The notes beneath the pieces are model-generated. The model ran no database searches and was not told the DNA's origin. It saw only the letters and a list, made by a program, of their open reading frames with translations. From IMG/VR virus record IMGVR_UViG_3300038530_003085, positions 1 through 64,000 of that record: a DNA stretch of 64,000 bases. One strand, 5' to 3'. This document shows positions 26,952-46,195 of this stretch, piece after piece. The stretch is from a virus. Taxonomy: Duplodnaviria > Caudoviricetes. Numbering within the stretch: the stretch's first letter is position 1; every line of letters begins with the position of its first letter. The position numbers were made by a program, and so were the translations under genes.

Positions 26952-27251
26952 CTAAATTTTTTCTTGTTTATTATTACCGCTAATCGAGTGATGTATATAA
27001 ATTCCTATCGCAATAGACATCTTTAATCCGTATTCTTCCACATATGTTGTTCCCGTAAACGCATGAAACTCGTCATTGGTGCTTACCCAATAAACTTTCC
27101 AAAATTTTGATTTGTAGTAATAACCAGCAATGTGAGGATCCTCCTCGGGCTCCATTAAAATACCAATGGTGCCTATAAGTTCATCCACCAGCATATCACC
27201 GGCTTGCAATTCAAGTTTATTCGCCTCAGTCCTTAAATCAGTATCGTCCAC
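26952..27251 (-). CDS. Small SH3/KOW-like protein
   Basis: LQAGDMLVD..IGIL..WKVYW. Confidence 0.55.
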   Translation of the reverse strand: MDDTDLRTEANKLELQAGDMLVDELIGTIGILMEPEEDPHIAGYYYKSKFWKVYWVSTNDEFHAFTGTTYVEEYGLKMSIAIGIYIHHSISGNNKQEKI

Positions 27252-27254
27252 AAC

Positions 27255-27569
27255 TTATTTGACTTCCATTGAGCTTGAGTGCGGGTTATTCTCGTCTATT
27301 ATGACCACTATTCCAGCTTTGATCAAATTAAGCAACCCGGACTCAGAGTACATAACGCGACCATCTTTAGACCACACACTATCCCACACCCAAGTGATGT
27401 AATGCTCCGACTCCCACACTAAATCATATGGTATGCTATATGAATCATCATTATAGTAATGGGCCTCTCTTGTCGAGAAACGTCGAACAAGTATACCAAT
27501 ACTCTTGGTATCAACATCATACAACGTCATACCCTCGACCAAAACTTGGCCGGCGTTTTTGTAACCCAT
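27255..27569 (-). CDS. Small SH3/KOW-like protein, related to its neighbour
   Basis: EGMTLYD..IGILV..W..VW..E.GL. Confidence 0.55.
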   Translation of the reverse strand: MGYKNAGQVLVEGMTLYDVDTKSIGILVRRFSTREAHYYNDDSYSIPYDLVWESEHYITWVWDSVWSKDGRVMYSESGLLNLIKAGIVVIIDENNPHSSSMEVK

Positions 27570-27587
27570 ACTTTAACTAGGGCTAAT

Positions 27588-27827
27588 TTATAACTTGTAC
27601 CAATTTTGACGTAACTTGATGCACTCAAATAGTGCTTTCTTCTTGTCGCTCTCTTTAACGTTAACTAAATTACAAGTATCAATAGGTGTGTATGGCTCAA
27701 TGTGCTCAGTAGCATCGTCTATTTTTTTGACGTAAGGTGACTGTAGGTCCTTAATCTCGCAATAGTCCAAATTGACAGACGTATTAACATTGCTAGCCAT
27801 ATAAACATATGCAATCAATTTTAACAT
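27588..27827 (-). CDS. Hypothetical protein
   Basis: AAGGA SD; late-type motif upstream. Confidence 0.5.
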   Translation of the reverse strand: MLKLIAYVYMASNVNTSVNLDYCEIKDLQSPYVKKIDDATEHIEPYTPIDTCNLVNVKESDKKKALFECIKLRQNWYKL

Positions 27828-27860
27828 TAATTAATCCTTAAAACGTGTATAAGTAGTGGT

Positions 27861-28106
27861 TTAAATTTTAATTCTATCAATAATATACGGGTGCTGAATC
27901 GATAAATCTTTGTATAGCTTTTTAAGCACCGATTTAGTGATATCCCCAATATCATCCTTCACTGACTTCGACTTAAGCACCTTTTCAACTTCATCTTCCA
28001 CCATAGACTTAAGTTCTTTTGATATCATACGCTTAACTTCGTCCTTATCGGATTTCGTTAATTCTTCGTATATGATTTGTTTTAATCTTTTTCTAGTGAT
28101 AACCAT
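27861..28106 (-). CDS. Hypothetical protein, probable head-associated
   Basis: ITRKRLKQIIYEE leader; ACTATTTA upstream. Confidence 0.6.
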   Translation of the reverse strand: MVITRKRLKQIIYEELTKSDKDEVKRMISKELKSMVEDEVEKVLKSKSVKDDIGDITKSVLKKLYKDLSIQHPYIIDRIKI

Positions 28107-28137
28107 GTTATTTCTACCACTGTAAATAGTTCAATGC

Positions 28138-28425
28138 CTACTCAAGTTCATCATAAAAGTACGCTTTTGTCAAATTATGCGATGAGCACGTGCGTATGTA
28201 ACCACTTTTCACGTGCATTATTTTGAATAACTGATGTCTACCATACGGCTTCATATCCCATTGGGCATTATTTTCTTCAACTATGATAGCCAATTTATCA
28301 TCTTGATCCGTTTCTACAAACTTCCAATTTACCGCATCTGGTGGAATTACGTATGTATCGTGGTAATACACCAAATCACCCAACTTGAATTCTCGATATC
28401 TTCTTGTGTCTTCTGTAAATGCCAT
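28138..28425 (-). CDS. Small SH3/KOW-like protein
   Basis: FKLGDLVYY. Confidence 0.55.
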   Translation of the reverse strand: MAFTEDTRRYREFKLGDLVYYHDTYVIPPDAVNWKFVETDQDDKLAIIVEENNAQWDMKPYGRHQLFKIMHVKSGYIRTCSSHNLTKAYFYDELE

Positions 28426-28445
28426 ATAGCTAATTCACATTGCGT

Positions 28446-28688
28446 TTAGACCGCTTTTCTAAGTCTACGTATGGTATGCATCCATATTCGTTCCTTAACG
28501 CCCTCGTGTGGAAATACGACCCAATATACTTTTACCATATCCATACCCGGATGATCATCACTAGCATCGTATAATTGTATAATCATAGCCAATCCCCCGT
28601 GGCAAGAACAAGTCACTAAGTCTCCGACTTTGAAGTTGTGCTTGGGTGGTATCTCGAAGTACTTGTATAGTCTCTCCTTATATCCCAC
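28446..28688 (-). CDS. Small SH3/KOW-like protein
   Basis: FKVGDLV..VKVYW. Confidence 0.55.
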   Translation of the reverse strand: MGYKERLYKYFEIPPKHNFKVGDLVTCSCHGGLAMIIQLYDASDDHPGMDMVKVYWVVFPHEGVKERIWMHTIRRLRKAV

Positions 28689-28704
28689 AATGTGCCCTCA
28701 TAGT

Positions 28705-29983: not shown

Positions 29984-29990
29984 AATAAAA

Positions 29991-30186: not shown

Positions 30187-30190
30187 ACGA

Positions 30191-30526: not shown

Positions 30527-30554
30527 AGATGAACTCCTTTCTTTCTATGCTAAT

Positions 30555-30818: not shown

Positions 30819-30833
30819 AGTTTTATCTCCTCC

Positions 30834-31316
30834 CTATGAAACCAGAACAAGATCCCGTTCTGGATAAGAAACTTTATAAGTGGTCTTCGGAGCATTTGGG
30901 CCCACCCACTCAACGATCACTTGTCCACCAGTCCCGGCATCAGTCACCAGACCGGTCAAGCCAGCATACCCTTGCCGGATCGCTCGCTTGTTTTCCTTGC
31001 CCCGAACAAGCTGACCGGGGGTGAACTTAGGCGGAGGCGGCAACAGAGAGTGAATCATCTGAGTTGCATTATCGCGGAACGATCCGGCATAGTAGTCGCT
31101 GTAAAGACAACTGTGATCATCGACTCGACGGACGTGGAAGTTGCAGGCCTCGGCATCCATTTGGTCTTCATCGTCACATCGACCGTTAGCCAAGAACGAG
31201 CCGACATATCCGTTGTGCACAAATGTCCAGCGACCAGTATCGTTGGTTACCTCGATATCGATGCCTTGCTTCTTGAAGTGAGTTTTGATTTTCTTGATTA
31301 CTGCTTTGACTTTCAT
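30834..31316 (-). CDS. Hypothetical protein with C-terminal SH3/KOW-like module
   Basis: AAGGAG SD; FTPGQLVR..TGLV..VEW. Confidence 0.7.
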   Translation of the reverse strand: MKVKAVIKKIKTHFKKQGIDIEVTNDTGRWTFVHNGYVGSFLANGRCDDEDQMDAEACNFHVRRVDDHSCLYSDYYAGSFRDNATQMIHSLLPPPPKFTPGQLVRGKENKRAIRQGYAGLTGLVTDAGTGGQVIVEWVGPNAPKTTYKVSYPERDLVLVS

Positions 31317-31344: not shown

Positions 31345-31398
31345 AATATAACATAGCGGATGGGGTTTTACAAGGGCGATCGTGTCAAGAAGATGTCA
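31345..31398 (-). promoter_or_regulatory. Cassette promoter 2 (-35 TTGTAA)
   Basis: Same spacing; contains the stop of ORF 31385-31591. Confidence 0.75.
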
Positions 31399-31591
31399 CG
31401 AGTTTAAGAAACTTACTGTTATGTACATGTGGCTCGTGACAGTCAATGCCACGATTCCACAAAACCCTAACATCGCCATTGCCCGCGAACTTACCAGTCT
31501 CAACAACCAACCCAATCGTCGATTCCTTTAAAGGAATTTCCTTTCCAGCCCATGTCGGACTGCGCCAAGCTACTAGATCACCGACTTTCAT
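31385..31591 (-). CDS. MKVGDLV-family small protein
   Basis: MKVGDLVAW..IGLVVE..RVLW. Confidence 0.7.
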   Translation of the reverse strand: MKVGDLVAWRSPTWAGKEIPLKESTIGLVVETGKFAGNGDVRVLWNRGIDCHEPHVHNSKFLKLVTSS

Positions 31592-31752
31592 ACGCTCACC
31601 AATACTTTAACATCCTGCGGAAGACCCCAGATATCACGAGGGTGGCTTTGCGCCTTGATGCGAACACCAAGTTCTTTGTCAATCTCAACAATCACACCCA
31701 GCTTCTCACCGTGATGCTTCGTTCTAACTCTTACCAAATCACCGACTTTCAT
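31588..31752 (-). CDS. MKVGDLV-family small protein (54 aa, below ORF-track cutoff)
   Basis: Hand translation MKVGDLVRVRTKHHGEKLGVIVEID...LVSV. Confidence 0.7.
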   Translation of the reverse strand: MKVGDLVRVRTKHHGEKLGVIVEIDKELGVRIKAQSHPRDIWGLPQDVKVLVSV

Positions 31753-31906
31753 TGATCACCTTCCCGCCCCAACTATTGACCCAATACTCAAGCCCTCCAT
31801 CCATCGAGCGCACTAATACTTCGCCCTTGTCATTAGCTTTGATAGCTAATCCGATGTATGGCTTTATGCTCGGCAGCTTCACGCTAATCAAATCACCGAC
31901 TTTCAT
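31739..31906 (-). CDS. MKVGDLV-family small protein (55 aa)
   Basis: Hand translation MKVGDLISVKLPSIKPYIGLAI...KVINESR. Confidence 0.7.
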   Translation of the reverse strand: MKVGDLISVKLPSIKPYIGLAIKANDKGEVLVRSMDGGLEYWVNSWGGKVINESR

Positions 31907-32342: not shown

Positions 32343-32528
32343 TCATGATGGATTGACAACCTGAAGCCACTTAACGGGCTCCCAATCAGCGATGTTAACT
32401 TCTGGCCAGTAGACTTTGGCTCGCTGGTCGAAGTGGTTAAATCCTACCACCACGCCGATTGGATCCGGTCCACGAGTCGAGGGAAATCTTACAAGATCAC
32501 CTAACTTCATTTCTTTTTCCTTAATCAT
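32343..32528 (-). CDS. MKVGDLV-family small protein
   Basis: MKLGDLVRF..IGVVV..KVYW. Confidence 0.65.
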   Translation of the reverse strand: MIKEKEMKLGDLVRFPSTRGPDPIGVVVGFNHFDQRAKVYWPEVNIADWEPVKWLQVVNPS

Positions 32529-33076: not shown

Positions 33077-33130
33077 AATATAGCACCCGCGAGGGTACAA
33101 GTCAATGGTTTTGTTGTCAAGTGGATGTCA
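33077..33130 (-). promoter_or_regulatory. Cassette promoter 4 (-35 TTGACT)
   Basis: Same spacing; contains the stop of the vWA-peptidase gene. Confidence 0.8.
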
Positions 33131-34351
33131 AGAGTCGATTGCAATCACACGTTCGTTTGTTTGAAAGTATGGGCGCGCCGCACAGCGCGCGGTAGTCATC
33201 CACATACGCTGGCACTTACTTGGAACAGGCTTAGGTGCCATCATATCAGTTAGAACAATGTGACCGTCAAACTCTCGTTCGTTAACGTACTTTGTAGGCG
33301 CGTTAAAACAAGTACCACCAGTCAAGACACGCTCGGTCTTACGGCTTTGTCCTTTCTTCCAAACGTAGACCATAGACTCAGCAACCGCGGTGTCAAAAGG
33401 GATCACCGTGAACTCCGCAATCTCTGCTAACTGGTTAAGTTCGGAGAAGAAAGCAGCCAACATAGCATCATCGACAGAACCAGATTGGTCAATAGAAACG
33501 GCTATCTTTGCGTGTCTACGGACTCGCTTGCCCGGATGGACCCGCGGGTAACGTTTGTTGATACGACGCGGTGTAGACCGCTTGTCGGCCCGTTGTGAGG
33601 TCTTTACGAAGTACCGCAGCACCTTGCGCCAGTCAATCTTGGTAGCAATACGGTCCATAATCTCAGAGCGCATACTTGATGAGACGGTGCCCCAGTTACG
33701 CGACTTCTCAGCCTCATCGGCAGCTTTCTTGATAGTGTCCTTAAGACGCTCCTTAGCGATCTCTTGAGTGGTTCCGTCAACGTCACCAAATCCGTCGTGG
33801 TCATCCATAGAATCCATACCACCAAACGGATCACCGTTGCCTTCACCCTCTTGCTTTTCATTCTCTACCATTTCTTTGAGGGCTTCAAGGTACCACTCAT
33901 AGGTCTTGAATGATGGAAGGTCCTTAAACATACCCTCACCGGGGATACAAGCCTTCATAGCTTGACCGCCAACGTCTGGGCCGGGTGTCGCTTCAGAGGG
34001 CAGGTAATCCGAAATGTGGCAGTTAATAGCCAAGTCCATAGCAATATTATCAATCTTCTTGAGACCGTCTACAGGCTTACGGCCAGTAACATGCTCAAAG
34101 ATGAGGTGATAGAACTCGTGCATCAACACACCCTGCATATGCCGATCCGAAAGCTGACCCATAAACTCAGGGTTGTACATCAGTTCAAACTGTGCCGTGG
34201 TGGGGTTAACACGCACACCAGCGGTAGGAATGGCAGTGGTCGAAATCTTGTCGATACGACGGGACAATGCAGCGAAGAAAGGCTCCCGCATAAGCAGCCG
34301 TGCAGTGTGCATATTCAGGTCAAATGGCTTAGTAGTCTTGTCGTCTGACAT
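33128..34351 (-). CDS. DUF2201-type metallopeptidase plus vWA domain protein
   Basis: PTAGV..YNPEF..HEFYH..NIAMDLAIN; SIDQSGS; GGTCF; LTD. Confidence 0.88.
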   Translation of the reverse strand: MSDDKTTKPFDLNMHTARLLMREPFFAALSRRIDKISTTAIPTAGVRVNPTTAQFELMYNPEFMGQLSDRHMQGVLMHEFYHLIFEHVTGRKPVDGLKKIDNIAMDLAINCHISDYLPSEATPGPDVGGQAMKACIPGEGMFKDLPSFKTYEWYLEALKEMVENEKQEGEGNGDPFGGMDSMDDHDGFGDVDGTTQEIAKERLKDTIKKAADEAEKSRNWGTVSSSMRSEIMDRIATKIDWRKVLRYFVKTSQRADKRSTPRRINKRYPRVHPGKRVRRHAKIAVSIDQSGSVDDAMLAAFFSELNQLAEIAEFTVIPFDTAVAESMVYVWKKGQSRKTERVLTGGTCFNAPTKYVNEREFDGHIVLTDMMAPKPVPSKCQRMWMTTARCAARPYFQTNERVIAIDS

Positions 34352-34372
34352 GTTCTATCTCCTTACATATAT

Positions 34373-34426
34373 AATATAGCACCGTGAGGCACCAAGGTCA
34401 AGGTTTAAGTTGTCAAGGAAATGTCA
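34373..34426 (-). promoter_or_regulatory. Cassette promoter 5 (-35 TTGACC)
   Basis: Same spacing; contains the stop of ORF 34424-34639. Confidence 0.8.
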
Positions 34427-34639
34427 AGGGATTTTATACAAAGCTCTGAATGCAGTTTCGGTTATCCAGCCGCAGCTACCGTCAGATACATATACTTTGA
34501 ACTTGTATCTCCGGTTGACAATATCACCATATCTGGATCTGGCAGTCTCTTCTTTGCCAAGAACAATGCCCGGCAAACCTTCGTATTTCTTAATAACAAG
34601 ATCTCCGATGGCTATTTTATCAATCCACATTTGAGACAA
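34424..34639 (-). CDS. Small SH3/KOW-like protein
   Basis: IAIGDLVI..PGIVL. Confidence 0.6.
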   Translation of the reverse strand: MSQMWIDKIAIGDLVIKKYEGLPGIVLGKEETARSRYGDIVNRRYKFKVYVSDGSCGWITETAFRALYKIP

Positions 34640-34853
34640 CGATTAGATCCTCTTCGTGAAAGTCCATATTCTCTTCAGTCTTTAGCCAGCGAACTTTATA
34701 GCGTTTCCTTCGGTCTATCGGCTTATAAATCTCAACCACCATACCGATACCGTGGGCCCTTTTAAAAGCCATACCAAGGCCGCCGGGGCCTGATAGTTTT
34801 ACCAGATCCCCGATTTTAGGCGGTGATAGTCGTGGCGGAATGCGATGGCGCAT
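34620..34853 (-). CDS. Small SH3/KOW-like protein
   Basis: PKIGDLVKL..IGMVVE..YKVRW. Confidence 0.65.
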   Translation of the reverse strand: MRHRIPPRLSPPKIGDLVKLSGPGGLGMAFKRAHGIGMVVEIYKPIDRRKRYKVRWLKTEENMDFHEEDLIVVSNVD

Positions 34854-35941
34854 TAGTCTTCAGTATTGCCTCCCAAGATTTCAACAAGGTGGTCGCTCAC
34901 ACGCTTACCATCGTGAGTGGTGGCCTTGTGCAGAGCCACAACGTTCTGCATGTTATCAGCATCTCCAAGGACGGTCCAAAGCTTCATAGCGATCTCGGAT
35001 GGAAGACGGACAAAGTATTCAGCCAAGTTAGTAACTTGAGTTTCGCTAAGCTGCTCGATGAAGATTTCTGAGGCTTCAAACTTCTCAATCATCGCGGCGT
35101 GGTCATTGATACCCCAGTTATCAACCTTCTCAAAGTCGCCATCATCAATGATGTCCTCAATGGTCACTTGCCACTCGTACTTCTCAACGAAGTCACGGAG
35201 AGTAACAGCGGCCTCGAAGCCAACAAAAGCAGTGGCGAGGTTGAACAGCAGATCACGATCGCCATCTTCGGCGAACACACCAGCAGGCTCAGCGGTACCG
35301 CAGAAGCGGTCCCAAGAGCGACGAGAAGGATAGACCTTGTTGGGCTCAAAGTCACCCTCGTGTTCCAAGTGCTTGCGGTTGTGGTTAATGAAGTCCCAAA
35401 CAATAGATGGGACGCGTCCATGGGCCCACTTAAGCCAATCTTCAATGGTAGGCTCGACATCGAACACAGTCCAGCGGTCAAGCTCTGCAGGGTCCATCTC
35501 GCCCACTTGGTATTGAGCACCGTGCTCGCCACCATTGACAGCAGCGACAATCAAAGTGTCCTCGTGCAAGTGCCAACCGTTCAGCTTGCGGCTATCGGTA
35601 AGCTCGAAAAGACCTTGACGGACTTCCATAGTAGCACGGTCAACCTCATCCAAGAAGAGAAGTACACCTTGCTCACAAGCAGTAACAAGCCAGTCAGGGG
35701 CATTCCAAGTGGTGGCCTTGCGACCATTGATAGCGGTATCAGCCGTATCAGGAAGACCAAGCAGGTCACCCTCGGTCATCTGTGATGCGCGGCGCTCAAC
35801 GACAGGCAGACCGCGCTCCTCTGCAATCTGGTAGACGACTTGTGATTTACCGATACCGTGACGGCCGCGAAGCAAGACGGGAAGTCGAGCATCGAGGATG
35901 AACGGAGCGGTAGTGGTGAATGTTGCGAAGTCGATAGCCAT
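34853..35941 (-). CDS. MoxR-like AAA+ ATPase
   Basis: GRHGIGKS Walker A, DLLGLP, LFLDEVDR Walker B, AAVN, MDPAELDR, SRRSW. Confidence 0.9.
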   Translation of the reverse strand: MAIDFATFTTTAPFILDARLPVLLRGRHGIGKSQVVYQIAEERGLPVVERRASQMTEGDLLGLPDTADTAINGRKATTWNAPDWLVTACEQGVLLFLDEVDRATMEVRQGLFELTDSRKLNGWHLHEDTLIVAAVNGGEHGAQYQVGEMDPAELDRWTVFDVEPTIEDWLKWAHGRVPSIVWDFINHNRKHLEHEGDFEPNKVYPSRRSWDRFCGTAEPAGVFAEDGDRDLLFNLATAFVGFEAAVTLRDFVEKYEWQVTIEDIIDDGDFEKVDNWGINDHAAMIEKFEASEIFIEQLSETQVTNLAEYFVRLPSEIAMKLWTVLGDADNMQNVVALHKATTHDGKRVSDHLVEILGGNTED

Positions 35942-36882: not shown

Positions 36883-36935
36883 AATATAACAACATCAGGG
36901 CCATCGTCAATGCGAAAGTTGTCAAGCAGATGTCA
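36883..36935 (-). promoter_or_regulatory. Cassette promoter 7 (-35 TTGACG, N16)
   Basis: Contains the stop of ORF 36922-37080. Confidence 0.75.
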
Positions 36936-37080
36936 AGAGTTCCAACAAATCACTGCGTGCTGGTAATGGATCGGCATAATCGTGCCACTTAACAAGTAAA
37001 TCACCATTGCCGACAAACTTTCCAACCTCGACAACGATACCAACGGAACCTTTCCAGCGGACCAAATCACCCACTTTCAT
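36922..37080 (-). CDS. MKVGDLV-family small protein (start reassigned)
   Basis: MKVGDLVRWKGSVGIVVEVGKFVGNGD, similar to 31385-31591 (ETGKFAGNGD). Confidence 0.7.
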   Translation of the reverse strand: MKVGDLVRWKGSVGIVVEVGKFVGNGDLLVKWHDYADPLPARSDLLELLTSA

Positions 37081-39019: not shown

Positions 39020-39208
39020 CTATCTTTCACTTATAACTGTTAGTAAATCCACGTTGTTCCAGTCCCTTGGGCTTTCATCTGACCACTGGTCAAACCAATG
39101 AACTTGAGCCTCGTTGAGTTTTGATTTTTTTCTGAATTTAATTATCACACCGTGACCAATCCATCCAGTCGGATCATATGTAACTCTCACCAAATCACCG
39201 ATCTTCAT
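39020..39208 (-). CDS. MKVGDLV-family small protein
   Basis: MKIGDLVRV..GVII..VHW..LTVISE. Confidence 0.7.
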   Translation of the reverse strand: MKIGDLVRVTYDPTGWIGHGVIIKFRKKSKLNEAQVHWFDQWSDESPRDWNNVDLLTVISER

Positions 39209-39371
39209 CGATCACTTCCAATCTTTTAGCTTGATCATTAGTATAATGCCATTGTCCATTAACACCAAACCATTTAACAACAACGTAGTCAGGTGTAATT
39301 TTCTCTACCACACCATTAGCAACTTCATATTTCCACATAGGCTGCATTCTTACTTTGTCGCCAACTTTCAT
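39195..39371 (-). CDS. MKVGDLV-family small protein (58 aa)
   Basis: Hand translation MKVGDKVRMQPMWKYEVANGVVE..VKW..LEVIDEDR. Confidence 0.7.
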   Translation of the reverse strand: MKVGDKVRMQPMWKYEVANGVVEKITPDYVVVKWFGVNGQWHYTNDQAKRLEVIDEDR

Positions 39372-39670
39372 TTTACAAACTTCAAATCCTTTCTAAAAAA
39401 GTAAGAAGTTTGGTATGGTCTTGCTGCTCTCATATTGCCATTATTCCATCTTCCTGCCGGTCCATCCGGCATCCAACGAACAAAATAATACTTTTTTTCG
39501 TTATCCGAAGTGTGATTGGTAATATGTGGATTGTCTTCAACATTAATAATCATACCAATAATATTCTTTTTCTCCATCCAAATCTTGTTACGCCACTTCC
39601 ACATTGGAGCAGTCTGCAGAACATACGAGGATAAAGTAACCAAATCACCGACTTTCACATCACGCTCCAA
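39368..39670 (-). CDS. MKVGDLV-family protein
   Basis: VKVGDLVTL..IGMII..FVRW..DLKFV. Confidence 0.7.
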   Translation of the reverse strand: MERDVKVGDLVTLSSYVLQTAPMWKWRNKIWMEKKNIIGMIINVEDNPHITNHTSDNEKKYYFVRWMPDGPAGRWNNGNMRAARPYQTSYFFRKDLKFVK

Positions 39671-39766
39671 ATACTGTAGCCAATCACTGCTAACGCAACA
39701 GTAATACCAAGCCAGCTATACACCAGCAAGAGACGCTCTGCCCTTTCAATATCATCTTTAAATGTT

Positions 39767-39982
39767 CTATTTTCCTTCACTTAGCACCTTCAACATTTTT
39801 TTAAGCTCAAAAGTTATTTCACCATCAAACCATTGAACCTTGGCAACTGACCTGCCATGATCAATCCTCGTTTCTTTGGGTCCAATAACCGTGATGATTC
39901 CTCGATGACTAGAGTCATGACGACTGCAAACCAAATCCCCTACATTCACGGGCGCACCATAGACTGCTTGAGAGCCTCGCAA
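39767..39982 (-). CDS. MKVGDLV-family small protein
   Basis: VNVGDLV..RGIIT..KVQWFDG..LKVLSE. Confidence 0.6.
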   Translation of the reverse strand: MRGSQAVYGAPVNVGDLVCSRHDSSHRGIITVIGPKETRIDHGRSVAKVQWFDGEITFELKKMLKVLSEGK

Positions 39983-40916: not shown

Positions 40917-41150
40917 TCAATCCTCAACTAGTTCTAGAAACATCTCGTGAAACTTTAAAACTTTACCGCCGGCAAAAGCAACATTATAAAATGCAGTGTA
41001 TGAACGACTCTCATCGATTTCTTCAGGAACCGTCTCCATCACAAGGCCCAGCCTGTGGCTTGGGATTGCGACATCATGAGTTGAGTCCTTGACACGCACA
41101 AGGTTACCGGGCTTAAACTTTGACAAATCTAATATCTCGTTTCTCCTCAT
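40917..41150 (-). CDS. Small SH3/KOW-like protein
   Basis: FKPGNLVRV..LGLVM..LELV. Confidence 0.6.
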   Translation of the reverse strand: MRRNEILDLSKFKPGNLVRVKDSTHDVAIPSHRLGLVMETVPEEIDESRSYTAFYNVAFAGGKVLKFHEMFLELVED

Positions 41151-41159: not shown

Positions 41160-41348
41160 CTAAACTCTAACAACCGAATGTGAAACATCATTAACGATGC
41201 TAGAGTAATGTATAACATTTTTTGCTCCATCATTCCAATGAATCGTAATGTAGCCTTTAGACTCCTCGATAACAACTCCCATCCTCTTGTCAAAGGATCT
41301 ATAAATAATCAAGTCTCCTACTTTAATAGTTTCCATCAATAATCTCAA
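41160..41348 (-). CDS. MKVGDLV-family small protein
   Basis: IKVGDLII..MGVVIE..IHWNDG. Confidence 0.6.
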   Translation of the reverse strand: MRLLMETIKVGDLIIYRSFDKRMGVVIEESKGYITIHWNDGAKNVIHYSSIVNDVSHSVVRV

Positions 41349-41514
41349 GTACGCCCGTATCGTACCACTCCGTTTCCCCGTTTATAAAATGAACTTTAGC
41401 AGAAAAAGTAATGTGACCTGTTTTAGAAATCTCAAGAATAACACCAAGATTGACCTCCTCATCTGCATAAGGATGAGGTACAAACTTGTACCTTACGAGA
41501 TCACCCACCTTCAC
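41323..41514 (-). CDS. MKVGDLV-family small protein (GTG start)
   Basis: VKVGDLVRY..LGVILE..KVHF..LEII; GGAGG SD. Confidence 0.65.
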   Translation of the reverse strand: MKVGDLVRYKFVPHPYADEEVNLGVILEISKTGHITFSAKVHFINGETEWYDTGVLEIIDGNY

Positions 41515-41683
41515 TGATAACCTCCAACCAAGCTTTTGGCTCCCAATCAATCTTGCCGGAACCTCCTATCCATCGAACACCAACTAGTGCGGTTCGACCG
41601 TAGCCTCTCTTGTTAACACTCACAACCACACCGACAAAGCCAGTTTGGTGCGTGTGCATTCTTACAAGACTTCCAATCTTCAT
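41501..41683 (-). CDS. MKVGDLV-family small protein
   Basis: MKIGSLVR..VGVVV..VRW..LEVISEGG. Confidence 0.65.
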   Translation of the reverse strand: MKIGSLVRMHTHQTGFVGVVVSVNKRGYGRTALVGVRWIGGSGKIDWEPKAWLEVISEGG

Positions 41684-41719
41684 ACAAATAACTTAACATT
41701 GATCAGAACAAAAAGCAAG

Positions 41720-41917
41720 TCAAGAGCCTGTGATAATTATAACATCATCGACTCTTTCATTAATTAAGCACTTATGTCCGTTGATCCAGACGATCCAAAT
41801 TTCCTCATCCCTCTCAAAACCTTTGCTAATGTAAGAATCAATAATAATACCCGGATTTGACCAATCATCATCCCCGAAAGACTTGGGCTTAAAAGAAATC
41901 AAATCACCTACTTTCAC
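41720..41917 (-). CDS. MKVGDLV-family small protein
   Basis: MKVGDLISF..PGIIID..IVW. Confidence 0.65.
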   Translation of the reverse strand: MKVGDLISFKPKSFGDDDWSNPGIIIDSYISKGFERDEEIWIVWINGHKCLINERVDDVIIITGS

Positions 41918-42119
41918 TTATGACCTCAATTAAATCTATTTCAGGCATAAGAATGTGCTCCTTCATATCATCAAAACAATACATTTTAAGCACCGAAGTT
42001 CTGTCATCGGAAGGAACTTCAACAATCACGCCGATGAACGGATCACCCCATCCCTCAATCGATTGATCGTATGGGTTCTTCATAGCATATTGCAGCTTAA
42101 TCAGATCCCCTACTTTTAT
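41904..42119 (-). CDS. MKVGDLV-family ORF with ATA at the expected start position (non-canonical start or pseudogene)
   Basis: Hand translation IKVGDLIKLQY..IGVIVE..IEVISESR. Confidence 0.5.
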   Translation of the reverse strand: MKVGDLIKLQYAMKNPYDQSIEGWGDPFIGVIVEVPSDDRTSVLKMYCFDDMKEHILMPEIDLIEVISESR

Positions 42120-42259
42120 TGATAATATCGTAATCGAAACTCTCCATAATTCTGTCTTGTTTGATAAGTTTACGAGACAGATTGATAATTTGTGACCTAT
42201 GAAACTTGATCATACGATGGTGAGATTCAATACATTCCTTAATCATATTTTCCTGTTGT

Positions 42260-42499
42260 TCAGTCATTTAATTCTTTTTGATCCTCCAAATTACACACAA
42301 TAACGGTATCTGAGTCTTCATGAATCTTAATCACATAAAACTTTTGCCCTTCCGTAATTTCACAAGGAAATGCGTTAATTGGCATCACTGCTTGTGCTGG
42401 TCCGCCATTTAAGGCAGGATTTGCACTAAGCTCAACGGAGGCAAAATGTGAATCAAAAGAGTCAATAACACCCACAAGCACAAAAGTTTTTAAAATCAT
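42260..42499 (-). CDS. Hypothetical protein
   Basis: GGAGG SD. Confidence 0.6.
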   Translation of the reverse strand: MILKTFVLVGVIDSFDSHFASVELSANPALNGGPAQAVMPINAFPCEITEGQKFYVIKIHEDSDTVIVCNLEDQKELND

Positions 42500-42503
42500 A
42501 ATA

Positions 42504-42725
42504 TTAGTCCTCCATATCTTCGTATATTTTTAAGTAAGACGCCCACTCTTCAGTGATTATACCAGTGTGCCAACGTATTTTAAATCGTGGGGTATGTGAA
42601 TATGAGTGCTCAATGGCCTCCACAATAATCCCCGGTGGTCTGCGCTGACCTAAGCCTCTATATCTTTCCCACTTAAAAAGTGCTGACGGCTCAGGCACAT
42701 ATGTAACCAGATCACCGACTTTCAT
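42504..42725 (-). CDS. MKVGDLV-family small protein
   Basis: MKVGDLVTY..PGIIVE..KIRW. Confidence 0.7.
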   Translation of the reverse strand: MKVGDLVTYVPEPSALFKWERYRGLGQRRPPGIIVEAIEHSYSHTPRFKIRWHTGIITEEWASYLKIYEDMED

Positions 42726-42938
42726 TTTAGCACATCATTGATTCTATCTTTCAAGCGCTGATCTTGGGTTTCATTAGCGATTTCTGCAAGAAAATCTTCA
42801 AGTTGAGACAGGCGTTTTTGTTGCTCGTGCAATGGATTAACAACAGAAATACCTTTATCCTCTAACTTGGAGTGGTAATAAGAATCATGATATGACATTG
42901 CAAGCCTCGATTATAAATAGTTAGTAAATTACATAAAG

Positions 42939-43014
42939 TGGTACGGGTGGCAGGATTTGAACCTGCGACCAATCGCATATAAGACGACTGCTCTTACCGC
43001 TGAGCTACACCCGC
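42939..43014 (-). tRNA. tRNA-Ile(UAU)
   Basis: GTCGT-CTTATAT-GCGAT anticodon arm; A73; encoded CCA. Confidence 0.88.
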
Positions 43015-43021
43015 AAAGAAA

Positions 43022-43098
43022 TGGCACACCCTGTAGGGCTCGAACCTACGACCCTCGGCTTAGAAGGCCGATGCTCTATCCAACTGAGCTAAGGGTGC
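43022..43098 (-). tRNA. tRNA-Arg(UCU)
   Basis: TCGGC-CTTCTAA-GCCGA; A20 in D loop; encoded CCA. Confidence 0.95.
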
Positions 43099-43107
43099 TT
43101 AATACCT

Positions 43108-43566
43108 CTATAGCATAACTTTTGCTTGCTTCTTTGTCAAGTACTTTTCAGACAAAAGTGAATACTTTACGAAAGGTGAAATATTCTCGTATTGAAAAGA
43201 CATTTCATCCTCCATTTCAATGCGATCATCAAAACGAAACCCAACAACAAACACTTTACCAATCGATTCACTTTCGGGGTCAGTGACAGCCCAAAAAGTG
43301 TGCTTCATCCCACGCTCCCTGTGCATACAGGTAACTTTAGTATTCTTTGGAAGATGATCGAGATGCCACAAGTGTGACATTTTGCCATCACGATCTCGCC
43401 AGTAATGTGGAATCGTGTAAGCTTTGTCCATTGTTTCAAACTTTGCAAGGTTAACAAAAGGAAGATGTGAGTCATCCCTAAGAAATGCAACGGTGCCTTT
43501 GCGTACTTTAGCTTGCTTCATTGCCAGACTCCTCCGGTGAAATACAATCCTCAAAGTAAACAACAA
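43108..43566 (-). CDS. Hypothetical protein (start probably MKQAK)
   Basis: GGAG SD before the internal ATG. Confidence 0.6.
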   Translation of the reverse strand: MLFTLRIVFHRRSLAMKQAKVRKGTVAFLRDDSHLPFVNLAKFETMDKAYTIPHYWRDRDGKMSHLWHLDHLPKNTKVTCMHRERGMKHTFWAVTDPESESIGKVFVVGFRFDDRIEMEDEMSFQYENISPFVKYSLLSEKYLTKKQAKVML

Positions 43567-43714
43567 TATTGCCCGGGCAGATTGCTAGTGGCTCTTGCCC
43601 CTCCTCGGCGTGATTATTAATATAATCATACCAAGCATCATTCTTATCGTGTGAGGAAACAAAAGTATAACTTCCATTCCCACTCTGACTGCTATAAATA
43701 ATTGTGTAGATCAT
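43508..43714 (-). CDS. Hypothetical protein
   Basis: GGAGG SD. Confidence 0.55.
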   Translation of the reverse strand: MIYTIIYSSQSGNGSYTFVSSHDKNDAWYDYINNHAEEGQEPLAICPGNIVVYFEDCISPEESGNEAS

Positions 43715-43987
43715 TTAATCCTCCGTAATAAGTCTACCTGCTGAATCTCTACCCTCAAGTTCCCACTGTAATTTTTTTAGCTCTGCAAGCCTTAAACAAG
43801 AATTCCATACTTTGGTTGCATAAACGAGGCAGTCACTATTCTGACTGTAGAATGCATCTAGTTTATCATTCTTGACTTTACTTTGCAACTCTTTGGTAGC
43901 ATCTTCTAAAGATTTGAGATTCATTTCTAAAGTCTTTAAACAAAGATTTTGTGCTTGCCACAGTTTATTTGTTTTGAATATATCCAC
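43715..43987 (-). CDS. Hypothetical protein
   Basis: ORF in operon. Confidence 0.55.
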   Translation of the reverse strand: MDIFKTNKLWQAQNLCLKTLEMNLKSLEDATKELQSKVKNDKLDAFYSQNSDCLVYATKVWNSCLRLAELKKLQWELEGRDSAGRLITED

Positions 43988-44117
43988 TTGTTTCTTCGCT
44001 TACTTTTTTAGTTGAGCCCAACTTAAAGATAAACCACCGTAAGCCGACAACAAAAAAAGTTGCCGTGCTTACAAATGATGCCATCCCCAAGAACTCATAA
44101 AGGTTGCCTGTCATATT

Positions 44118-44303
44118 CTACTCCCGATAGTAATTTGCCAAGCCCATAAGTGTTGGGGCCCAAAGACCGACAAAGATTCCAAACCTTTCAGCGTGTGCCG
44201 GATCTGCACTTGATGCAACCCAGACATAAATGCTGCAGGCGACGGAAATCAGAGAGGCTGCAAAGAATGCCACAGCCACATTATTGTCTCTTGTAGTTAA
44301 CAT
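44118..44303 (-). CDS. Small two-TM membrane protein
   Basis: ERFGIFVGLWAPTL motif; GGGAG SD. Confidence 0.65.
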   Translation of the reverse strand: MLTTRDNNVAVAFFAASLISVACSIYVWVASSADPAHAERFGIFVGLWAPTLMGLANYYRE

Positions 44304-44328
44304 ATTTTCTCCCTTTTGTTATGTTAAA

Positions 44329-44405
44329 TGGTGGGCCCTGTCGGACTCGAACCGACGACTCTCCCGTTATGAGCGGGATGCTCTAACCAACTGAACTAAA
44401 GGCCC
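44329..44405 (-). tRNA. tRNA with CAU anticodon, most likely Ile2 (lysidine type)
   Basis: TCCCG-CTCATAA-CGGGA; GGGCCTT acceptor with C4-G69/C5-G68; paired 1-72, so not an initiator. Confidence 0.85.
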
Positions 44406-44410
44406 AAAAG

Positions 44411-44558
44411 TGCCCTTGCCTATCCTCCATCCGTCGAACAATCATGATAGCTGCAGCTATTAATCTCTTCAACCAGACTTCTGAACTTCTCGCAAGGGTG
44501 TGGTGATCAATGTGCATCCAGCTTGCTTAACGGACTTGAACCGATTTGTGATTCCACA
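44411..44558 (-). ncRNA. Candidate ncRNA with permuted T-arm/D-arm module and a second stem-closed domain
   Basis: TGTGG..CGG-TTCAAGT-CCG..GCA-AGCTGGA-TGC..CCACA; CCCTTGC/GCAAGGG. Confidence 0.45.
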
Positions 44559-44571
44559 GTAAAATAAAAGA

Positions 44572-44657
44572 TGGTAGCTGATGCGAGACTCGAACTCGCA
44601 AGCCCAAAGGGCGACAGATTTTAAGTCTGTTGTGTATACCAATTCCACCAATCAGCC
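44572..44657 (-). tRNA. tRNA-Leu(UAA)
   Basis: ACAGA-CTTAAAA-TCTGT; long variable arm GCCC-TTT-GGGC; encoded CCA. Confidence 0.95.
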
Positions 44658-44665
44658 ATAAATAA

Positions 44666-44694
44666 ATTATAATAGGTTAGCGACACGCTGTCAA
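44666..44694 (-). promoter_or_regulatory. Consensus sigma70 promoter for the tRNA cluster
   Basis: TTGACA-N17-TATAAT. Confidence 0.8.
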
Positions 44695-44701
44695 GTAGTT
44701 T

Positions 44702-44938
44702 TTATAATTTTATTAGTTCGGATTCAATAAAATATCGTTTTGTTCCGTCAAGACATAAAACAGTGTAGACATAATCTTGAAAGTATTCCATTTCATAGTC
44801 GATATCAATGATGACACCAGTGTGGGTTGTAGTAAAATAATCATCAGGATCATCGTGCCAATAATAATATTCAATAATATCATAAAAGCCCTTAACGAGA
44901 TTGCCTATCTTATATTTTGGTGGTATATCAAATCCCAT
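44702..44938 (-). CDS. Small SH3/KOW-like protein
   Basis: YKIGNLVK..TGVIID..YTV..DG. Confidence 0.6.
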   Translation of the reverse strand: MGFDIPPKYKIGNLVKGFYDIIEYYYWHDDPDDYFTTTHTGVIIDIDYEMEYFQDYVYTVLCLDGTKRYFIESELIKL

Positions 44939-44959
44939 ACATTATTTAGTATGAGCCAC

Positions 44960-45586
44960 CTACTTTCTTTTTAACTTAATAAACCGCTCTTCAATAATCA
45001 CCGGGATTGTGCTACCGATCGGTAGAATCTTATACATTTTTGCACCCTTGGCAGCAGAACGAATAACATCTAGCACTCGAATGATAAGGCCACCTTTGGC
45101 GCGAAAAGCCTTAACAGCTTGATCTTGGCTACTCCAAGTTGTGGGTGCCGAAATGCCAATATTCTTTGCATAACAGTTCGCGCGAGCAGCCACAAGAGTG
45201 CCGGCAGGATATTTAGGTTCAGCGTGGTGTGTATCTAAAACTCTCTGAGCATACTTATTACTACGCATTTTCGTATATGCCCGCATATCAGGCACCAAGC
45301 CTTTGAGAATATCGCGAGTTAACTCAGAAAAGTAGCCGGTGGTGTTATAATACTGCGCAAGCACAAGTGCATCCGACTTATGCTCTTTAATGTATACGCT
45401 CTCCCACTCATCGTGAAGGGATTGAGCCTCCTCGCCGTTACGAAGGATAACTTTGGTAGCAGTCGTAACTTGTTTCTCTGAGAGTGTACGACCCTTCTCA
45501 AGCTGACCTAAAATCGATTCAAGAAATCCACGGTCCCACCCTGTACATACTGGACGACTAAGAGCCATTTCAATTTCTTCTTTCAT
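44960..45586 (-). CDS. Hypothetical protein with C-terminal SH3-like module
   Basis: GGAGG SD; WDRGFLESI..LSEKQ; KYPAGTLV. Confidence 0.7.
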   Translation of the reverse strand: MKEEIEMALSRPVCTGWDRGFLESILGQLEKGRTLSEKQVTTATKVILRNGEEAQSLHDEWESVYIKEHKSDALVLAQYYNTTGYFSELTRDILKGLVPDMRAYTKMRSNKYAQRVLDTHHAEPKYPAGTLVAARANCYAKNIGISAPTTWSSQDQAVKAFRAKGGLIIRVLDVIRSAAKGAKMYKILPIGSTIPVIIEERFIKLKRK

Positions 45587-45604
45587 GTTCCCTCCAACAC
45601 TTAT

Positions 45605-45657
45605 AATATATAGGATACATACTAGAAGGTCAAGAATTATTTGTCAGCTAAATGTCA
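45605..45657 (-). promoter_or_regulatory. Cassette promoter 9 (-35 TTGACC, N8 to box)
   Basis: Contains the stop of ORF 45655-45996. Confidence 0.75.
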
Positions 45658-45996
45658 GTAATCATCAACTTCAGGGGACAGTACGATTGCGTCGATGTAT
45701 CCGTGTGGAACTTTAACAACTTGACATCGCCAACCACCCCATTTAGGGATTACATCAAATAGTGGAAAGTCGGGACACTGTGTGATTATGGTCTCACTCG
45801 GAACATCAACCTCAACAATTACCTCAAGAACAGAACCCCCATCATCAGAACCAGCGACAACTTCGTACCTACCACCGTAGTAATTGGATATTTCAAGTGT
45901 CAGGGAGTTGATAGCATTTTGTTTTGATAATTTTTCGCCATCATTAAAAAATATATTAGCCATCTTTTCTCTCACTGATAACTTCAACGAAATCAT
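45655..45996 (-). CDS. Hypothetical protein (start probably MANIF)
   Basis: ORF in operon. Confidence 0.6.
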   Translation of the reverse strand: MISLKLSVREKMANIFFNDGEKLSKQNAINSLTLEISNYYGGRYEVVAGSDDGGSVLEVIVEVDVPSETIITQCPDFPLFDVIPKWGGWRCQVVKVPHGYIDAIVLSPEVDDY

Positions 45997-46195
45997 AATT
46001 CGTATCTAAAATAACTAGCTTTGAATCCTTACAATCGAAACAGTGGGCAATAATAGCAGTGCTTTTTTTGCGTGATATATCCAAAACTATACCATATCTG
46101 TATATCGGCGAGATCCCCACAACATCAGTTGGTGAAGCTTTAAAAGTGTCGTGATGTGAAACCCACTTAATGAGGTCACCATTTTTTACCCGCAT
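45956..46195 (-). CDS. MKVGDLV-family small protein
   Basis: VKNGDLIKW..YGIVLD..VEVISE. Confidence 0.6.
   Translation of the reverse strand: MRVKNGDLIKWVSHHDTFKASPTDVVGISPIYRYGIVLDISRKKSTAIIAHCFDCKDSKLVILDTNYDFVEVISERKDG

What the first reader, a model, noticed from the sequence alone, without database searches (positions are those of the whole stretch)
26952..46195. Expanded array of tiny MKVGDLV SH3/KOW-like genes joined by a dual-frame DNA joint
Seen: more than 20 ORFs of about 50-105 aa in this span (plus outliers at 8800, 11468, 11676, 17887 and 58386) share (M)K-[VIL]-G-D-L-V ... G-[IV]-[IV]-[IV] ... V-x-W ... L-E-V-I-[SN]-E but have highly variable middles. The 14-mer RTGAAAGTNGGTGA (or a near variant) occurs at 31578, 31739, 31893, 37067, 39195, 39645, 41501, 41904 and 42712. 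It encodes MKVGD in one frame and often the end of the previous gene in another (..NESR*, ..HESG*, ..DEDR*, ..SEGG*, ..SESR*). Inference: a self-similar scaffold library in which the joint gives translational coupling and microhomology for duplication or exchange. It could be a diversified binder repertoire against host defence or ribosome/RNAP targets. The fold is inferred from pattern only.
Basis: partly seen in the sequence, partly recalled or inferred. Interest (0 to 1): 0.75.

Follow-up and report, generated by a model that had tools for sequence, protein, structure and literature searches.

The report
Swappable mini-barrel gene cassettes in phage
An uncultured 187-kb marine T4-related phage carries about 25 tiny genes for one small barrel-shaped protein, many chained by a standard overlapping stop/ribosome-site/start joint, and close relatives have gained, lost and reordered whole genes at that joint; what the proteins bind is still unknown.

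Summary
Profile searches find 22 secure and about 4 borderline members of one ~60-residue family in the genome, all on the coding strand. ORFs 26952, 27255, 29470, 8800 and 58386 are not supported. Two AlphaFold models give the same five-strand SH3/KOW-like barrel; the variable middles are loop insertions.

The 14-mer is part of a ~32-nt joint, T-GGAGGT-NATNA-RTG-AAA-GTC-GGT-GAT. Its L-E-V codons carry the next gene's ribosome-binding site, and GGT-GA supplies the upstream stop. Across 83 related loci, 248 of about 300 adjacent family pairs overlap by exactly 14 nt.

Codon choice in the joint far exceeds amino-acid need: GTC 62% against 6-19% at the family's other conserved valines, and GAG 91% at one glutamate against GAA 93% four codons later.

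Copy number near the conserved ATPase ranges from 5 to 18. Eleven of 23 clean indels between near-identical phages remove 1, 2 or 4 whole genes between two joints. Three of these events lie in or beside the window's 31385-31906 trio.

The genes are under purifying selection (dN/dS 0.13-0.33). Their target is unknown.

The closest known analogue is PeSL-mediated shuffling in T4-type phages. This scan has already met the same array in at least seven other genomes.

The parts
45956..46195 (-). family member (79 aa, ...VEVISERKDG*), stands alone
   Evidence: ext-only HMM E 5.7e-5; hhalign 95%
44702..44938 (-). borderline divergent member (YKIGNLV...)
   Evidence: HMM E 0.014; hhalign 47%; middle-only HMM E 0.0024
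42504..42725 (-). family member; its ATG overlaps the stop of non-family gene 42722-42898 by 4 nt (ATGA)
41904..42119 (-). family member with a decayed joint: ATA where the start should be and GGG-GA instead of GGT-GA; the next in-frame ATG is at 42083
41904..41917 (-). 14-nt joint GTGAAAGTAGGTGA: ...VISESR* upstream, M(GTG)KVGD downstream
41720..41917 (-). family member (65 aa), GTG start
   Evidence: HMM E 7e-19
41501..41683 (-). family member (60 aa); modelled
   Evidence: AF2 pLDDT 87.7, five strands; Spt5 KOW Z 9.4
41501..41514 (-). 14-nt joint GTGAAGGTGGGTGA: ...ISEGG* upstream, MKVGD downstream; GGAGGT lies 5 nt upstream
41323..41514 (-). family member (63 aa), GTG start
   Evidence: HMM E 1e-13
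41323..41336 (-). 14-nt overlap of a different sequence (ATGGAAACTATTAA): ...IIDGNY* upstream, METIKVGD downstream
41160..41336 (-). family member
   Evidence: HMM E 1e-10
40917..41150 (-). divergent member (FKPGNLVRV...)
   Evidence: hhalign 92%
39767..39949 (-). family member
   Evidence: HMM E 8e-10
39368..39658 (-). family member (96 aa) with a helical insert; GTGA overlap with 39655-39780
   Evidence: AF2 pLDDT 84.2, same barrel plus helices at residues 11-28
39195..39371 (-). family member; ATGA overlap with 39368
39195..39208 (-). 14-nt joint ATGAAGATCGGTGA: ...VIDEDR* upstream, MKIGD downstream
39020..39208 (-). family member, last of its chain
   Evidence: HMM E 2e-14
37067..37080 (-). 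14-nt joint ATGAAAGTGGGTGA that ends a non-family gene (37067-37402, ...MHESG*)
36922..37080 (-). family member (52 aa); its stop TGA lies inside a TTGACA box
34620..34853 (-). family member directly after the AAA ATPase; the most widely kept orthologue (22 loci)
34424..34639 (-). divergent member (IAIGDLV...)
   Evidence: hhalign 87%
32343..32528 (-). family member
   Evidence: HMM E 1e-12
31739..31906 (-). cassette A; absent in relative L081, moved in L068
31739..31752 (-). 14-nt joint ATGAAAGTCGGTGA: ...VINESR* upstream, MKVGD downstream
31588..31752 (-). cassette B; kept in L081 and L068
31385..31591 (-). cassette C; ATGA overlap with B; stop inside a TTGACA box; absent in L081
28446..28688 (-). 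family member with an N-terminal extension
   Evidence: HMM E 6e-5
28138..28425 (-). divergent member (95 aa)
   Evidence: HMM E 0.003; hhalign 76%
17887..18147 (-). outlying divergent member
   Evidence: window-seeded iterative HMM E 3.5e-10 (the ORF was drawn into that profile during iteration); outside-only HMM E 0.041; hhalign 80%
11468..11936 (-). two adjacent outlying members (11676-11936 and 11468-11707)
   Evidence: HMM E 1e-6 and 4e-8

Best explanation
This is a hyperplastic early-gene region of an uncultured marine Far-T4-like myovirus. It holds about 25 diverged copies of one stand-alone ~60-residue SH3/KOW-like beta-barrel protein.

The copies are arranged as cassettes. The last eight codons of a gene (L-E-V-I-[S/N]-E-S-R-stop) and the first five codons of the next gene (M-K-V-G-D) are one ~32-nt DNA module:
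- GGAGGT inside the L-E-V codons is the next gene's ribosome-binding site.
- The [S/N]-E codons contain its GTG or ATG start.
- Its GGT-GA (Gly-Asp) codons supply the upstream TGA stop.

Shown here:
- The module is the standard junction in this phage clade.
- It is held at the DNA level beyond what either protein requires.
- Near-identical phages differ by deletion, insertion or relocation of whole cassettes, with the joint repeated at both breakpoints. Because every cassette carries the same ends, such events leave the neighbouring reading frames and initiation signals intact.
- Each cassette is under purifying selection.

Inferred:
- The overlap gives termination-reinitiation coupling along operons driven by sigma70-like early promoters.
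- The proteins are early-made binders of host or phage macromolecules, with hypervariable loops on a fixed core, whose repertoire turns over quickly under host-specific selection (host takeover or counter-defence).

The target is unknown.
For: Family and fold:
- An HMM built only from outside sequences recovers 22 ORFs at E<1e-3.
- A middle-only HMM that leaves out both joint-coded ends, and leaves out this genome's own clusters, still finds 13 members at E<1e-3. Its top 27 hits are family members or family candidates, including 26952 and the C-terminus of 30834, which other tests do not support.
- The AF2 models have pLDDT 87.7 and 84.2 and the same five strands. Structural matches: Spt5 KOW Z 9.4 with rmsd 1.6 A over 56 residues, PsaE Z 8.6, NusG KOW Z 7.5.

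Joint:
- Among adjacent family pairs in 83 loci, 248 overlap by 14 nt, 31 by 4 nt, and few by anything else.
- The logo of 201 unique joints is T-GGAGGT-NATNA-RTG-AAA-GTC-GGT-GAT.
- In 307 cluster representatives, Val3 is GTC in 62%, against 6-19% at the family's other conserved Val columns. Gly4 is GGT in 86%, against 35% at Gly20. Glu55 is GAG in 91%, while Glu59 is GAA in 93%.
- Background codon use is GTC 21%, GGT 37% and GAG 51%.
- There is no conserved RNA fold at the joint.
- The exact 25-nt joint pattern occurs in at least 120 IMG/VR stretches.

Turnover:
- 775 family genes fall into 398 clusters at 55% identity.
- There are 5-18 copies in the 10 kb upstream of the AAA ATPase and 0-7 downstream.
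- 11 of 23 clean indels between loci at least 88% identical have joint sequence at a breakpoint, mostly at both. The joint-to-joint events remove 1, 2 or 4 whole genes with an 8-38 nt repeat at the ends.
- In the window, cassette A (31753-31906) is missing from L081. C is also missing there, but that deletion has only 3 nt of microhomology and ends at a promoter box. L068 carries one extra cassette and has A and B on the other side of the Zn-ribbon gene.

Selection and expression:
- dN/dS is 0.13-0.33 for the family, against 0.11 for the neighbouring ATPase.
- TTGACx-17-TATATT promoter-like sites lie on the coding strand in front of the operons.
Against: - No experiment or expression data were available. 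Coupling and early timing are inferred from sequence.
- The protein target is unknown. There is no significant match to any Pfam or PHROG family. The longer relatives retrieved and read are mostly tandem copies of the domain; one (P0255) has an unexamined ~95-aa N-terminal part, and none points to a function. pI ranges from 4.3 to 10.3.
- Ends of high-identity segments between relatives are enriched at the joints 5.4-fold, but also 4.2-fold at the ends of non-family genes. That measure is therefore not specific to the joint.
- The relatives are metagenome assemblies. Short repeats could in principle cause some mis-joins.
- Only 6 of about 22 starts in this window use the 14-nt overlap. The rest use 4-nt or 1-nt overlaps or gaps.
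Confidence: 0.72

Rival explanations
1. The joint is conserved only because it is a dual-coded translation initiation and termination region. Recombination at it is an unselected by-product of being a repeat, so there is no 'cassette system'.
For: - A perfect ribosome-binding site, start and stop sit in the joint, and the region is unstructured.
- Dual coding alone explains GGT, GAG and GAA.
- Segment ends are enriched at all gene boundaries, not only at joints.
Against: - GTC at Val3 stays at 56% in starts that no upstream gene overlaps. It is not required by either protein, since AGG would also give Arg.
- Homology at the breakpoints runs up to 38 nt, beyond the dual-coded part.
Confidence: 0.3
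2. The proteins are nucleic-acid or ribosome/RNA-polymerase ligands in the manner of KOW, Tudor or Sm domains. They would tune host or phage transcription and translation rather than counter defence.
For: - The best structural matches are the KOW domains of Spt5 and NusG, ribosomal eS4, and the UvrD Tudor domain bound to RNA polymerase.
- The profile gives a weak match to the T. maritima NusG KOW domain (E 0.016).
Against: - No member reaches any Pfam KOW, Tudor or SH3 threshold.
- The charge range is very wide (pI 4.3-10.3), and the loops differ between copies. This does not fit one common nucleic-acid ligand.
Confidence: 0.2
3. Neighbouring cassette products assemble into fixed hetero-oligomers, and the overlaps serve to set their stoichiometry.
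For: Overlapping unidirectional gene pairs often encode subunits of heteromeric complexes (PMC10666635). Chains of up to 7 coupled genes occur.
Against: Near-identical phages differ by single cassettes and by cassette order, and copy number ranges from 5 to 18. An obligate complex would not tolerate this.
Confidence: 0.07
4. The small ORFs are non-functional filler or selfish repeats.
For: No known function. Decayed copies exist (the 42083-42119 joint).
Against: - dN/dS is 0.13-0.33 in 19 orthologue groups.
- The barrel models are confident.
- 1072 clusters at 50% identity match the profile in public data.
Confidence: 0.04

Closest known systems
PeSL (promoter-early stem-loop) cassettes in hyperplastic regions of T4-type phages (Arbiol et al. 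2010, PMC2839356; Comeau et al. 2014, PMC4122927)
   Same: Short repeated regulatory motifs between small non-essential early genes of T4-superfamily phages. Indels, replacements and reordering between close relatives have their ends in the repeats.
   Different: A PeSL is an intergenic promoter plus terminator stem-loop. The joint here is coding on both sides (ribosome-binding site, start and stop in two frames), has no stem-loop, and links members of a single protein family. PeSL-like promoter boxes (TTGACAACTT) also bound some indels in this clade.
KOW / SH3-like small beta-barrels (NusG/Spt5 KOW; also PsaE, R67 DHFR, DsrB, DUF2158)
   Same: A five-strand barrel of about 55-60 residues. It has a KOW-like opening 'KVGDxV' and a G-[IV]-V second strand. 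Z 9.4 to Spt5 KOW.
   Different: Stand-alone and phage-encoded. No significant profile match to any of these families. Loops are hypervariable. The two conserved ends are partly dictated by the DNA joint.
Translationally coupled overlapping gene pairs (ATGA / TGATG; Huber et al. 2019, PMC6728339; PMC10666635)
   Same: Co-directional genes in which the stop of one gene overlaps the start of the next, with an upstream ribosome-binding site inside the preceding gene.
   Different: The usual overlaps are 4 or 1 nt. Here one fixed 14-nt overlap, with the same sequence, is reused hundreds of times across a clade.

Membership tests
KOW domain (Pfam PF00467; NusG/Spt5/uL24 type) | Five-strand SH3-like barrel superposable on solved KOW domains | tested here: met
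   AF2 pLDDT 87.7. VIA-align gives Z 9.4, rmsd 1.6 A over 56 residues to MjSpt5 KOW, and Z 7.5 to NusG.
KOW domain (Pfam PF00467; NusG/Spt5/uL24 type) | Significant match to the KOW sequence profile | tested here: not met
   No KOW hit for 10 window members at E<=1. KOW is not among the 25 families listed for the 110 family sequences at E<=0.1 (27 matched; two are not shown). Against PDB sequences, NusG scores only E 0.016.
KOW domain (Pfam PF00467; NusG/Spt5/uL24 type) | Occurs as a domain of a transcription factor or ribosomal protein | tested here: not met
   The proteins are stand-alone at 45-138 aa. The longer forms read are mostly tandem copies of the same unit; P0255 has an unexamined ~95-aa N-terminal part.
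DUF2158 (PF09926) / DsrB (PF10781) small barrel proteins | Profile match above the curated cut-off | tested here: not met
   DUF2158: 5 of 110 members, best E 0.007. DsrB: 12.8 bits against a cut-off of 25. The ESM atlas gives DsrB as the nearest named cluster, at only 0.89.
PeSL regulatory cassettes | Repeat consists of a sigma70-like promoter plus a terminator stem-loop | tested here: not met
   The joint logo is ribosome-binding site, start and stop. RNAalifold finds no structure; z = -0.2.
PeSL regulatory cassettes | Repeated many times in a hyperplastic region of small early genes | tested here: met
   9 copies in the window against 0.22 expected. 248 joints in 83 loci.
PeSL regulatory cassettes | Indels and rearrangements between close relatives end in the repeats | tested here: met
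   11 of 23 clean indels end in joints, with 8-38 nt of repeat. The G000/L081/L068 comparison shows it in this window.
PeSL regulatory cassettes | Recombination between repeats releases mini-circles | not testable with these tools
   This needs PCR or long reads on phage DNA.

The most novel reading that the evidence does not exclude
The ~32-nt joint is a selected 'plug-and-play' recombination site written inside coding sequence. By giving every cassette identical, frame-safe ends that also carry the ribosome-binding site, start and stop, the phage population could shuffle, add and drop members of a hypervariable binder library between co-infecting genomes. That would be a coding-sequence counterpart of PeSLs or integron cassettes, and the joints would evolve in concert.
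Probability: 0.4. Interest if true: 0.75.

Novelty: new variant of a known kind. Interest (0 to 1): 0.6.

Why it matters
If the reading is right, it shows a way for a virus to keep a large, fast-changing repertoire of small proteins. One short DNA module acts as stop, ribosome site, start and crossover point, so whole genes can be exchanged without breaking their neighbours. This extends the PeSL idea of modular shuffling from intergenic regulatory repeats into overlapping coding sequence.

It also shows that much of a protein family's 'signature' can be imposed by DNA-level function: 13 of about 18 conserved positions lie in the joint.

The family is abundant in ocean viromes (1072 clusters at 50% identity), is absent from Pfam and PHROGs, and has no known function. 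It is therefore a defined target for expression, pull-down and counter-defence screens.

Tried and rejected
- Pfam and PHROGs on ten members: nothing significant.
- Pfam on 110 family sequences: only scattered weak SH3/Tudor/DUF2158 hits.
- tblastn of a member against 50,697 deposited phage genomes: no match.
- blastn of the ATPase/VWA region against the same set: no match.
The neighbouring ATPase was used as the anchor instead.
- Search for fused forms: the longer relatives retrieved are mostly tandem copies; none gave a functional clue. Long multi-stretch hits such as P0124 are unrelated repeat proteins.
- Conserved RNA structure at the joint: none.
- Enrichment of segment ends at joints: real (55 against 9.5 expected), but ends of non-family genes show nearly the same enrichment. 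It was dropped as specific evidence.
- Literature searches for a description of this family or joint found none. The Far-T4 paper (PMC4360716) does not mention it.
- ORFs 26952, 27255, 29470, 8800 and 58386, and the C-terminus of 30834, were considered as members and are not supported.


Full report
**Setting**

The window is the first 64 kb of a single 187,393-bp contig in which almost all long ORFs lie on the minus strand. The genome encodes:
- a gp23-like major capsid protein, best cultured matches Flavobacterium phage immuto (49%) and Rhodothermus phage RM378 (43%);
- a terminase and a portal;
- GroEL, PhoH, and a MoxR-type AAA ATPase with a DUF2201/VWA partner;
- seven tRNAs and a tmRNA.

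It is therefore an uncultured marine member of the distant 'Far-T4' branch of the T4 superfamily (compare PMC4360716). The host is unknown.

**Checking the observation**

The 14-mer RTGAAAGTNGGTGA (up to 1 mismatch) occurs 9 times, always on the coding strand, against 0.22 expected.

Reading the junctions:
- At 31739, 37067, 39195, 41501 and 41904 the same 14 bases are the start M-K-[VI]-G-D of one gene and the last codons plus TGA of the previous gene (..NESR*, ..HESG*, ..DEDR*, ..SEGG*, ..SESR*).
- A sixth 14-nt overlap, with another sequence, is at 41323-41336.
- At 31578, 39358, 39645 and 42712 the overlap is ATGA or GTGA. At 31893 it is TAATG.

Family membership:
- An iterative HMM seeded from window ORFs converges on 24 genome ORFs.
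- An HMM built only from outside homologues finds 22 at E<1e-3 and 27 at E<0.05 among 1254 ORFs, all on the coding strand.
- hhalign supports the divergent members 34424, 40917, 45956, 17887 and 28138.
- hhalign does not support 26952, 27255, 29470, 58386 or 8800.

The left end of the stated span and two of the named outliers are not part of the family.

**Is it one protein family or only shared ends?**

13 of the roughly 18 conserved profile positions lie in the two ends. I therefore built a profile from columns 8-53 only, using relatives' genes and leaving out every cluster that contains a gene of this genome. It still finds 13 window members at E<1e-3. Its top 27 hits are family members or candidates, including two (26952 and the C-terminus of 30834) that other tests do not support.

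Structure predictions:
- AlphaFold2 on 41501-41683 gives a five-strand barrel (pLDDT 87.7).
- The most aberrant member, 39368-39658 (96 aa), gives the same strands plus two helices inserted in the first loop (pLDDT 84.2).
- A search of all PDB representatives puts the Spt5 KOW domain first (Z 9.4, rmsd 1.6 A over 56 residues). PsaE, R67 DHFR, NusG KOW and Tudor/chromo domains follow.
- Foldseek E-values are weak, 0.02-0.2.

No Pfam or PHROG family is matched significantly. The fold claim (SH3/KOW-like) is supported. Membership of the KOW family is not.

**The family outside this genome**

- A profile search of 1.8 billion cluster representatives finds 1072 clusters at E<=1e-3. Almost all are 55-75-residue proteins that begin at residue 1.
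- The word-indexed search finds 203 proteins, mostly from marine metagenomes and unnamed.
- BFVD structure hits are runs of consecutive uncharacterised accessions, which suggests several copies per genome.
- tblastn against deposited phage genomes finds nothing.

**Anatomy of the joint**

I used the neighbouring AAA ATPase as an anchor and fetched 80 related IMG/VR loci (57-94% protein identity), plus a 196-kb Tara contig. These hold 775 family genes.

Junction lengths: among adjacent family pairs, 248 overlap by exactly 14 nt and 31 by 4 nt; other values are rare. Chains of up to seven genes are linked this way.

Sequence: the logo of 201 unique joints is T-GGAGGT-NATNA-RTG-AAA-GTC-GGT-GAT. 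Read in the two frames:
- The C-terminal L-E-V of the upstream protein is written as (T/C)TG-GAG-GTN. That is a perfect ribosome-binding site 5 nt before the next start.
- The next-but-one codon is AGT (Ser) or AAT (Asn), which makes the start GTG or ATG.
- The downstream Gly-Asp codons GGT-GA give the upstream stop.

GTG is used in 41% of overlapped starts, against 12% of the others.

**Is the DNA more constrained than the proteins require?**

Yes. Using one representative per 55%-identity cluster (n=307) and the family's own conserved columns as controls:

| Position | Codon use in the joint | Control column(s) in the same family |
|---|---|---|
| Val3 | GTC 62% | 6%, 19%, 19% and 7% at the four other conserved Val columns |
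| Gly4 | GGT 86% | 35% at Gly20 |
| Glu55 (in L-E-V) | GAG 91% | Glu59, four codons later, is GAA 93% |
| Leu54 | ends in G in 77% | no control column compared |

Background usage is GTC 21%, GGT 37% and GAG 51%. GGT, GAG and GAA follow from dual coding and the ribosome-binding site.

GTC does not follow from either. It persists at 56% in starts that no upstream gene overlaps, either Arg codon would serve the upstream frame, and the joint has no conserved RNA structure. This remains unexplained. Homogenisation of joints by recombination is one candidate.

**Comparison among relatives**

- In loci with full flanks there are 5-18 family genes in the 10 kb upstream of the ATPase and 0-7 downstream.
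- The 775 genes fall into 398 clusters at 55% identity, and most clusters occur in only a few loci.
- Recent in-locus duplicates exist but are rare: 87%, 77% and 65% identical pairs, some adjacent.

I then looked for clean indels between loci at least 88% identical in DNA:
- 11 of 23 have joint sequence at a breakpoint, mostly at both. The joint-to-joint events remove or add 1, 2 or 4 whole genes, with the aligned segments overlapping by 8-38 nt. This is the signature of an event between direct repeats.
- Most of the remaining events end at TTGACAACTT-type promoter boxes.

Three of these events concern this window:
- Cassette A (31753-31906) is absent from L081.
- Cassette C (31385-31591) is also absent there, with only 3 nt of microhomology.
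- L068 has an extra 50-residue cassette between A and B, and carries A-X-B upstream of the Zn-ribbon gene rather than downstream, with C joined directly to the Zn-ribbon gene.

One apparent further line of evidence was withdrawn. Ends of high-identity segments are enriched at joints (55 against 9.5 expected). A control shows nearly the same enrichment at the ends of non-family genes (4.2-fold against 5.4-fold). It reflects the general mosaicism of phage genomes at gene boundaries.

**Are the genes functional?**

Pairwise dN/dS in 19 orthologue groups is 0.13-0.33 (median 0.26), against 0.11 for the ATPase. This indicates purifying selection with somewhat faster protein change; dS is near saturation, so the values are rough.

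At least one copy is decaying: at 42083-42119, ATA stands at the start position and GGG-GA replaces GGT-GA.

Sigma70-like TTGACx-17-TATATT sites lie on the coding strand in front of the gene chains at 45633, 44694, 43140, 40550, 38415, 37813, 36910, 36020, 34401, 33105 and 30583. In total 63 sites were found against 40.5 +/- 6.5 expected. This fits early transcription by host polymerase but was not tested.

**What the proteins do**

This is not resolved.
- The conserved positions are core positions. The loops differ in length and sequence, and pI ranges from 4.3 to 10.3.
- The longer relatives retrieved and read are mostly tandem copies of the unit.
- The neighbouring genes are mostly of unknown function.

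These features, together with the rapid turnover, fit a repertoire of early binders with different partners (host takeover or counter-defence). The KOW-like fold keeps ribosome or RNA-polymerase targets possible. Obligate hetero-oligomers of neighbours are unlikely, given the single-cassette differences between near-identical phages. The folding test was not available.

**Comparison with what is known**

The closest described system is PeSL-mediated modular shuffling in T4-type phages (PMC2839356, PMC4122927). In both cases, repeated regulatory motifs between small early genes serve as points of exchange.
- Same: the phage superfamily, the hyperplastic setting, and indel ends that fall in the repeats.
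- Different: the repeat here is a two-frame coding joint rather than an intergenic promoter-terminator, it has no stem-loop, and it links paralogues of one family.

Overlaps of 4 and 1 nt are the usual coupling geometry in prokaryotes (PMC6728339, PMC10666635). A single fixed 14-nt overlap reused across a clade is unusual. I found no paper describing this family or joint.

**Earlier scan findings**

After I had reached these conclusions, a look-up showed that this scan has already met the same array in at least seven other genomes of the clade, with follow-up reports reaching the same reading. That is not independent evidence, but it means this window is a further instance rather than a first sighting.

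**Verdict**

It is untested for the proposed targets. This is a new variant of a known kind of system.

Noticed in passing
window 12177-12514 (-): A phage-encoded tmRNA (Rfam RF00023, 117.8 bits; ARAGORN tag peptide ANNNLHFDEAARLAA). It lies near a tRNA cluster at 9198-10127; four more tRNAs are at 42939-44657.
   Followed up: partly
window 31385-31410, 36905-36940, 41715-41725 (-): Family genes that end a chain finish ...L[VL]TS[SA]*, with the TGA stop inside a TTGACA-like box next to a TTGACx-17-TATATT promoter-like site. Several clean indels between near-identical relatives end at 'TTGACAACTT' boxes, which is PeSL-like behaviour. This is the subject of notes e1-5781847 and e1-5781857.
   Followed up: partly
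window 42083-42119 (-): Decayed joint: ATA at the start position and GGG-GA instead of GGT-GA, so the upstream ORF 42097-42267 runs 9 nt further. The family gene may start only at the internal ATG at 42083 and so lack its first strand.
   Followed up: partly
L068 7631-8948; L081 4098-4893: Close relatives (88-94% DNA identity) carry the window's 31385-31906 cassettes in another order (L068, with one extra 50-aa cassette) or only one of the three (L081).
   Followed up: yes
window 30834-31316 (-): A 160-aa protein whose last ~60 residues (FTPGQLVRGKE...VIVEW...DLVLVS) look like the same barrel joined to an unknown N-terminal domain. hhalign gives only 30% probability.
   Followed up: partly
genome 105813-107624 (L084:2813-4624, -): The major capsid protein is gp23-like but 603 aa long. 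Matches to cultured phages cover only about 60% of it in two pieces, which suggests a large insertion.
   Followed up: no
P0005, P0178, P0156 (metagenome proteins): Occasional in-frame fusions of two adjacent cassettes (e.g. ...WLEVISERS-VKVGDLV...). A frame change at the joint seems to give two-barrel proteins, or these may be sequencing errors.
   Followed up: no
window 58592-60178, 7430-8767, 33128-35941 (-): The phage encodes GroEL, a PIN-PhoH fusion, and a MoxR-type AAA ATPase with a DUF2201 metallopeptidase/VWA partner. The ATPase is a good syntenic anchor for the clade.
   Followed up: partly
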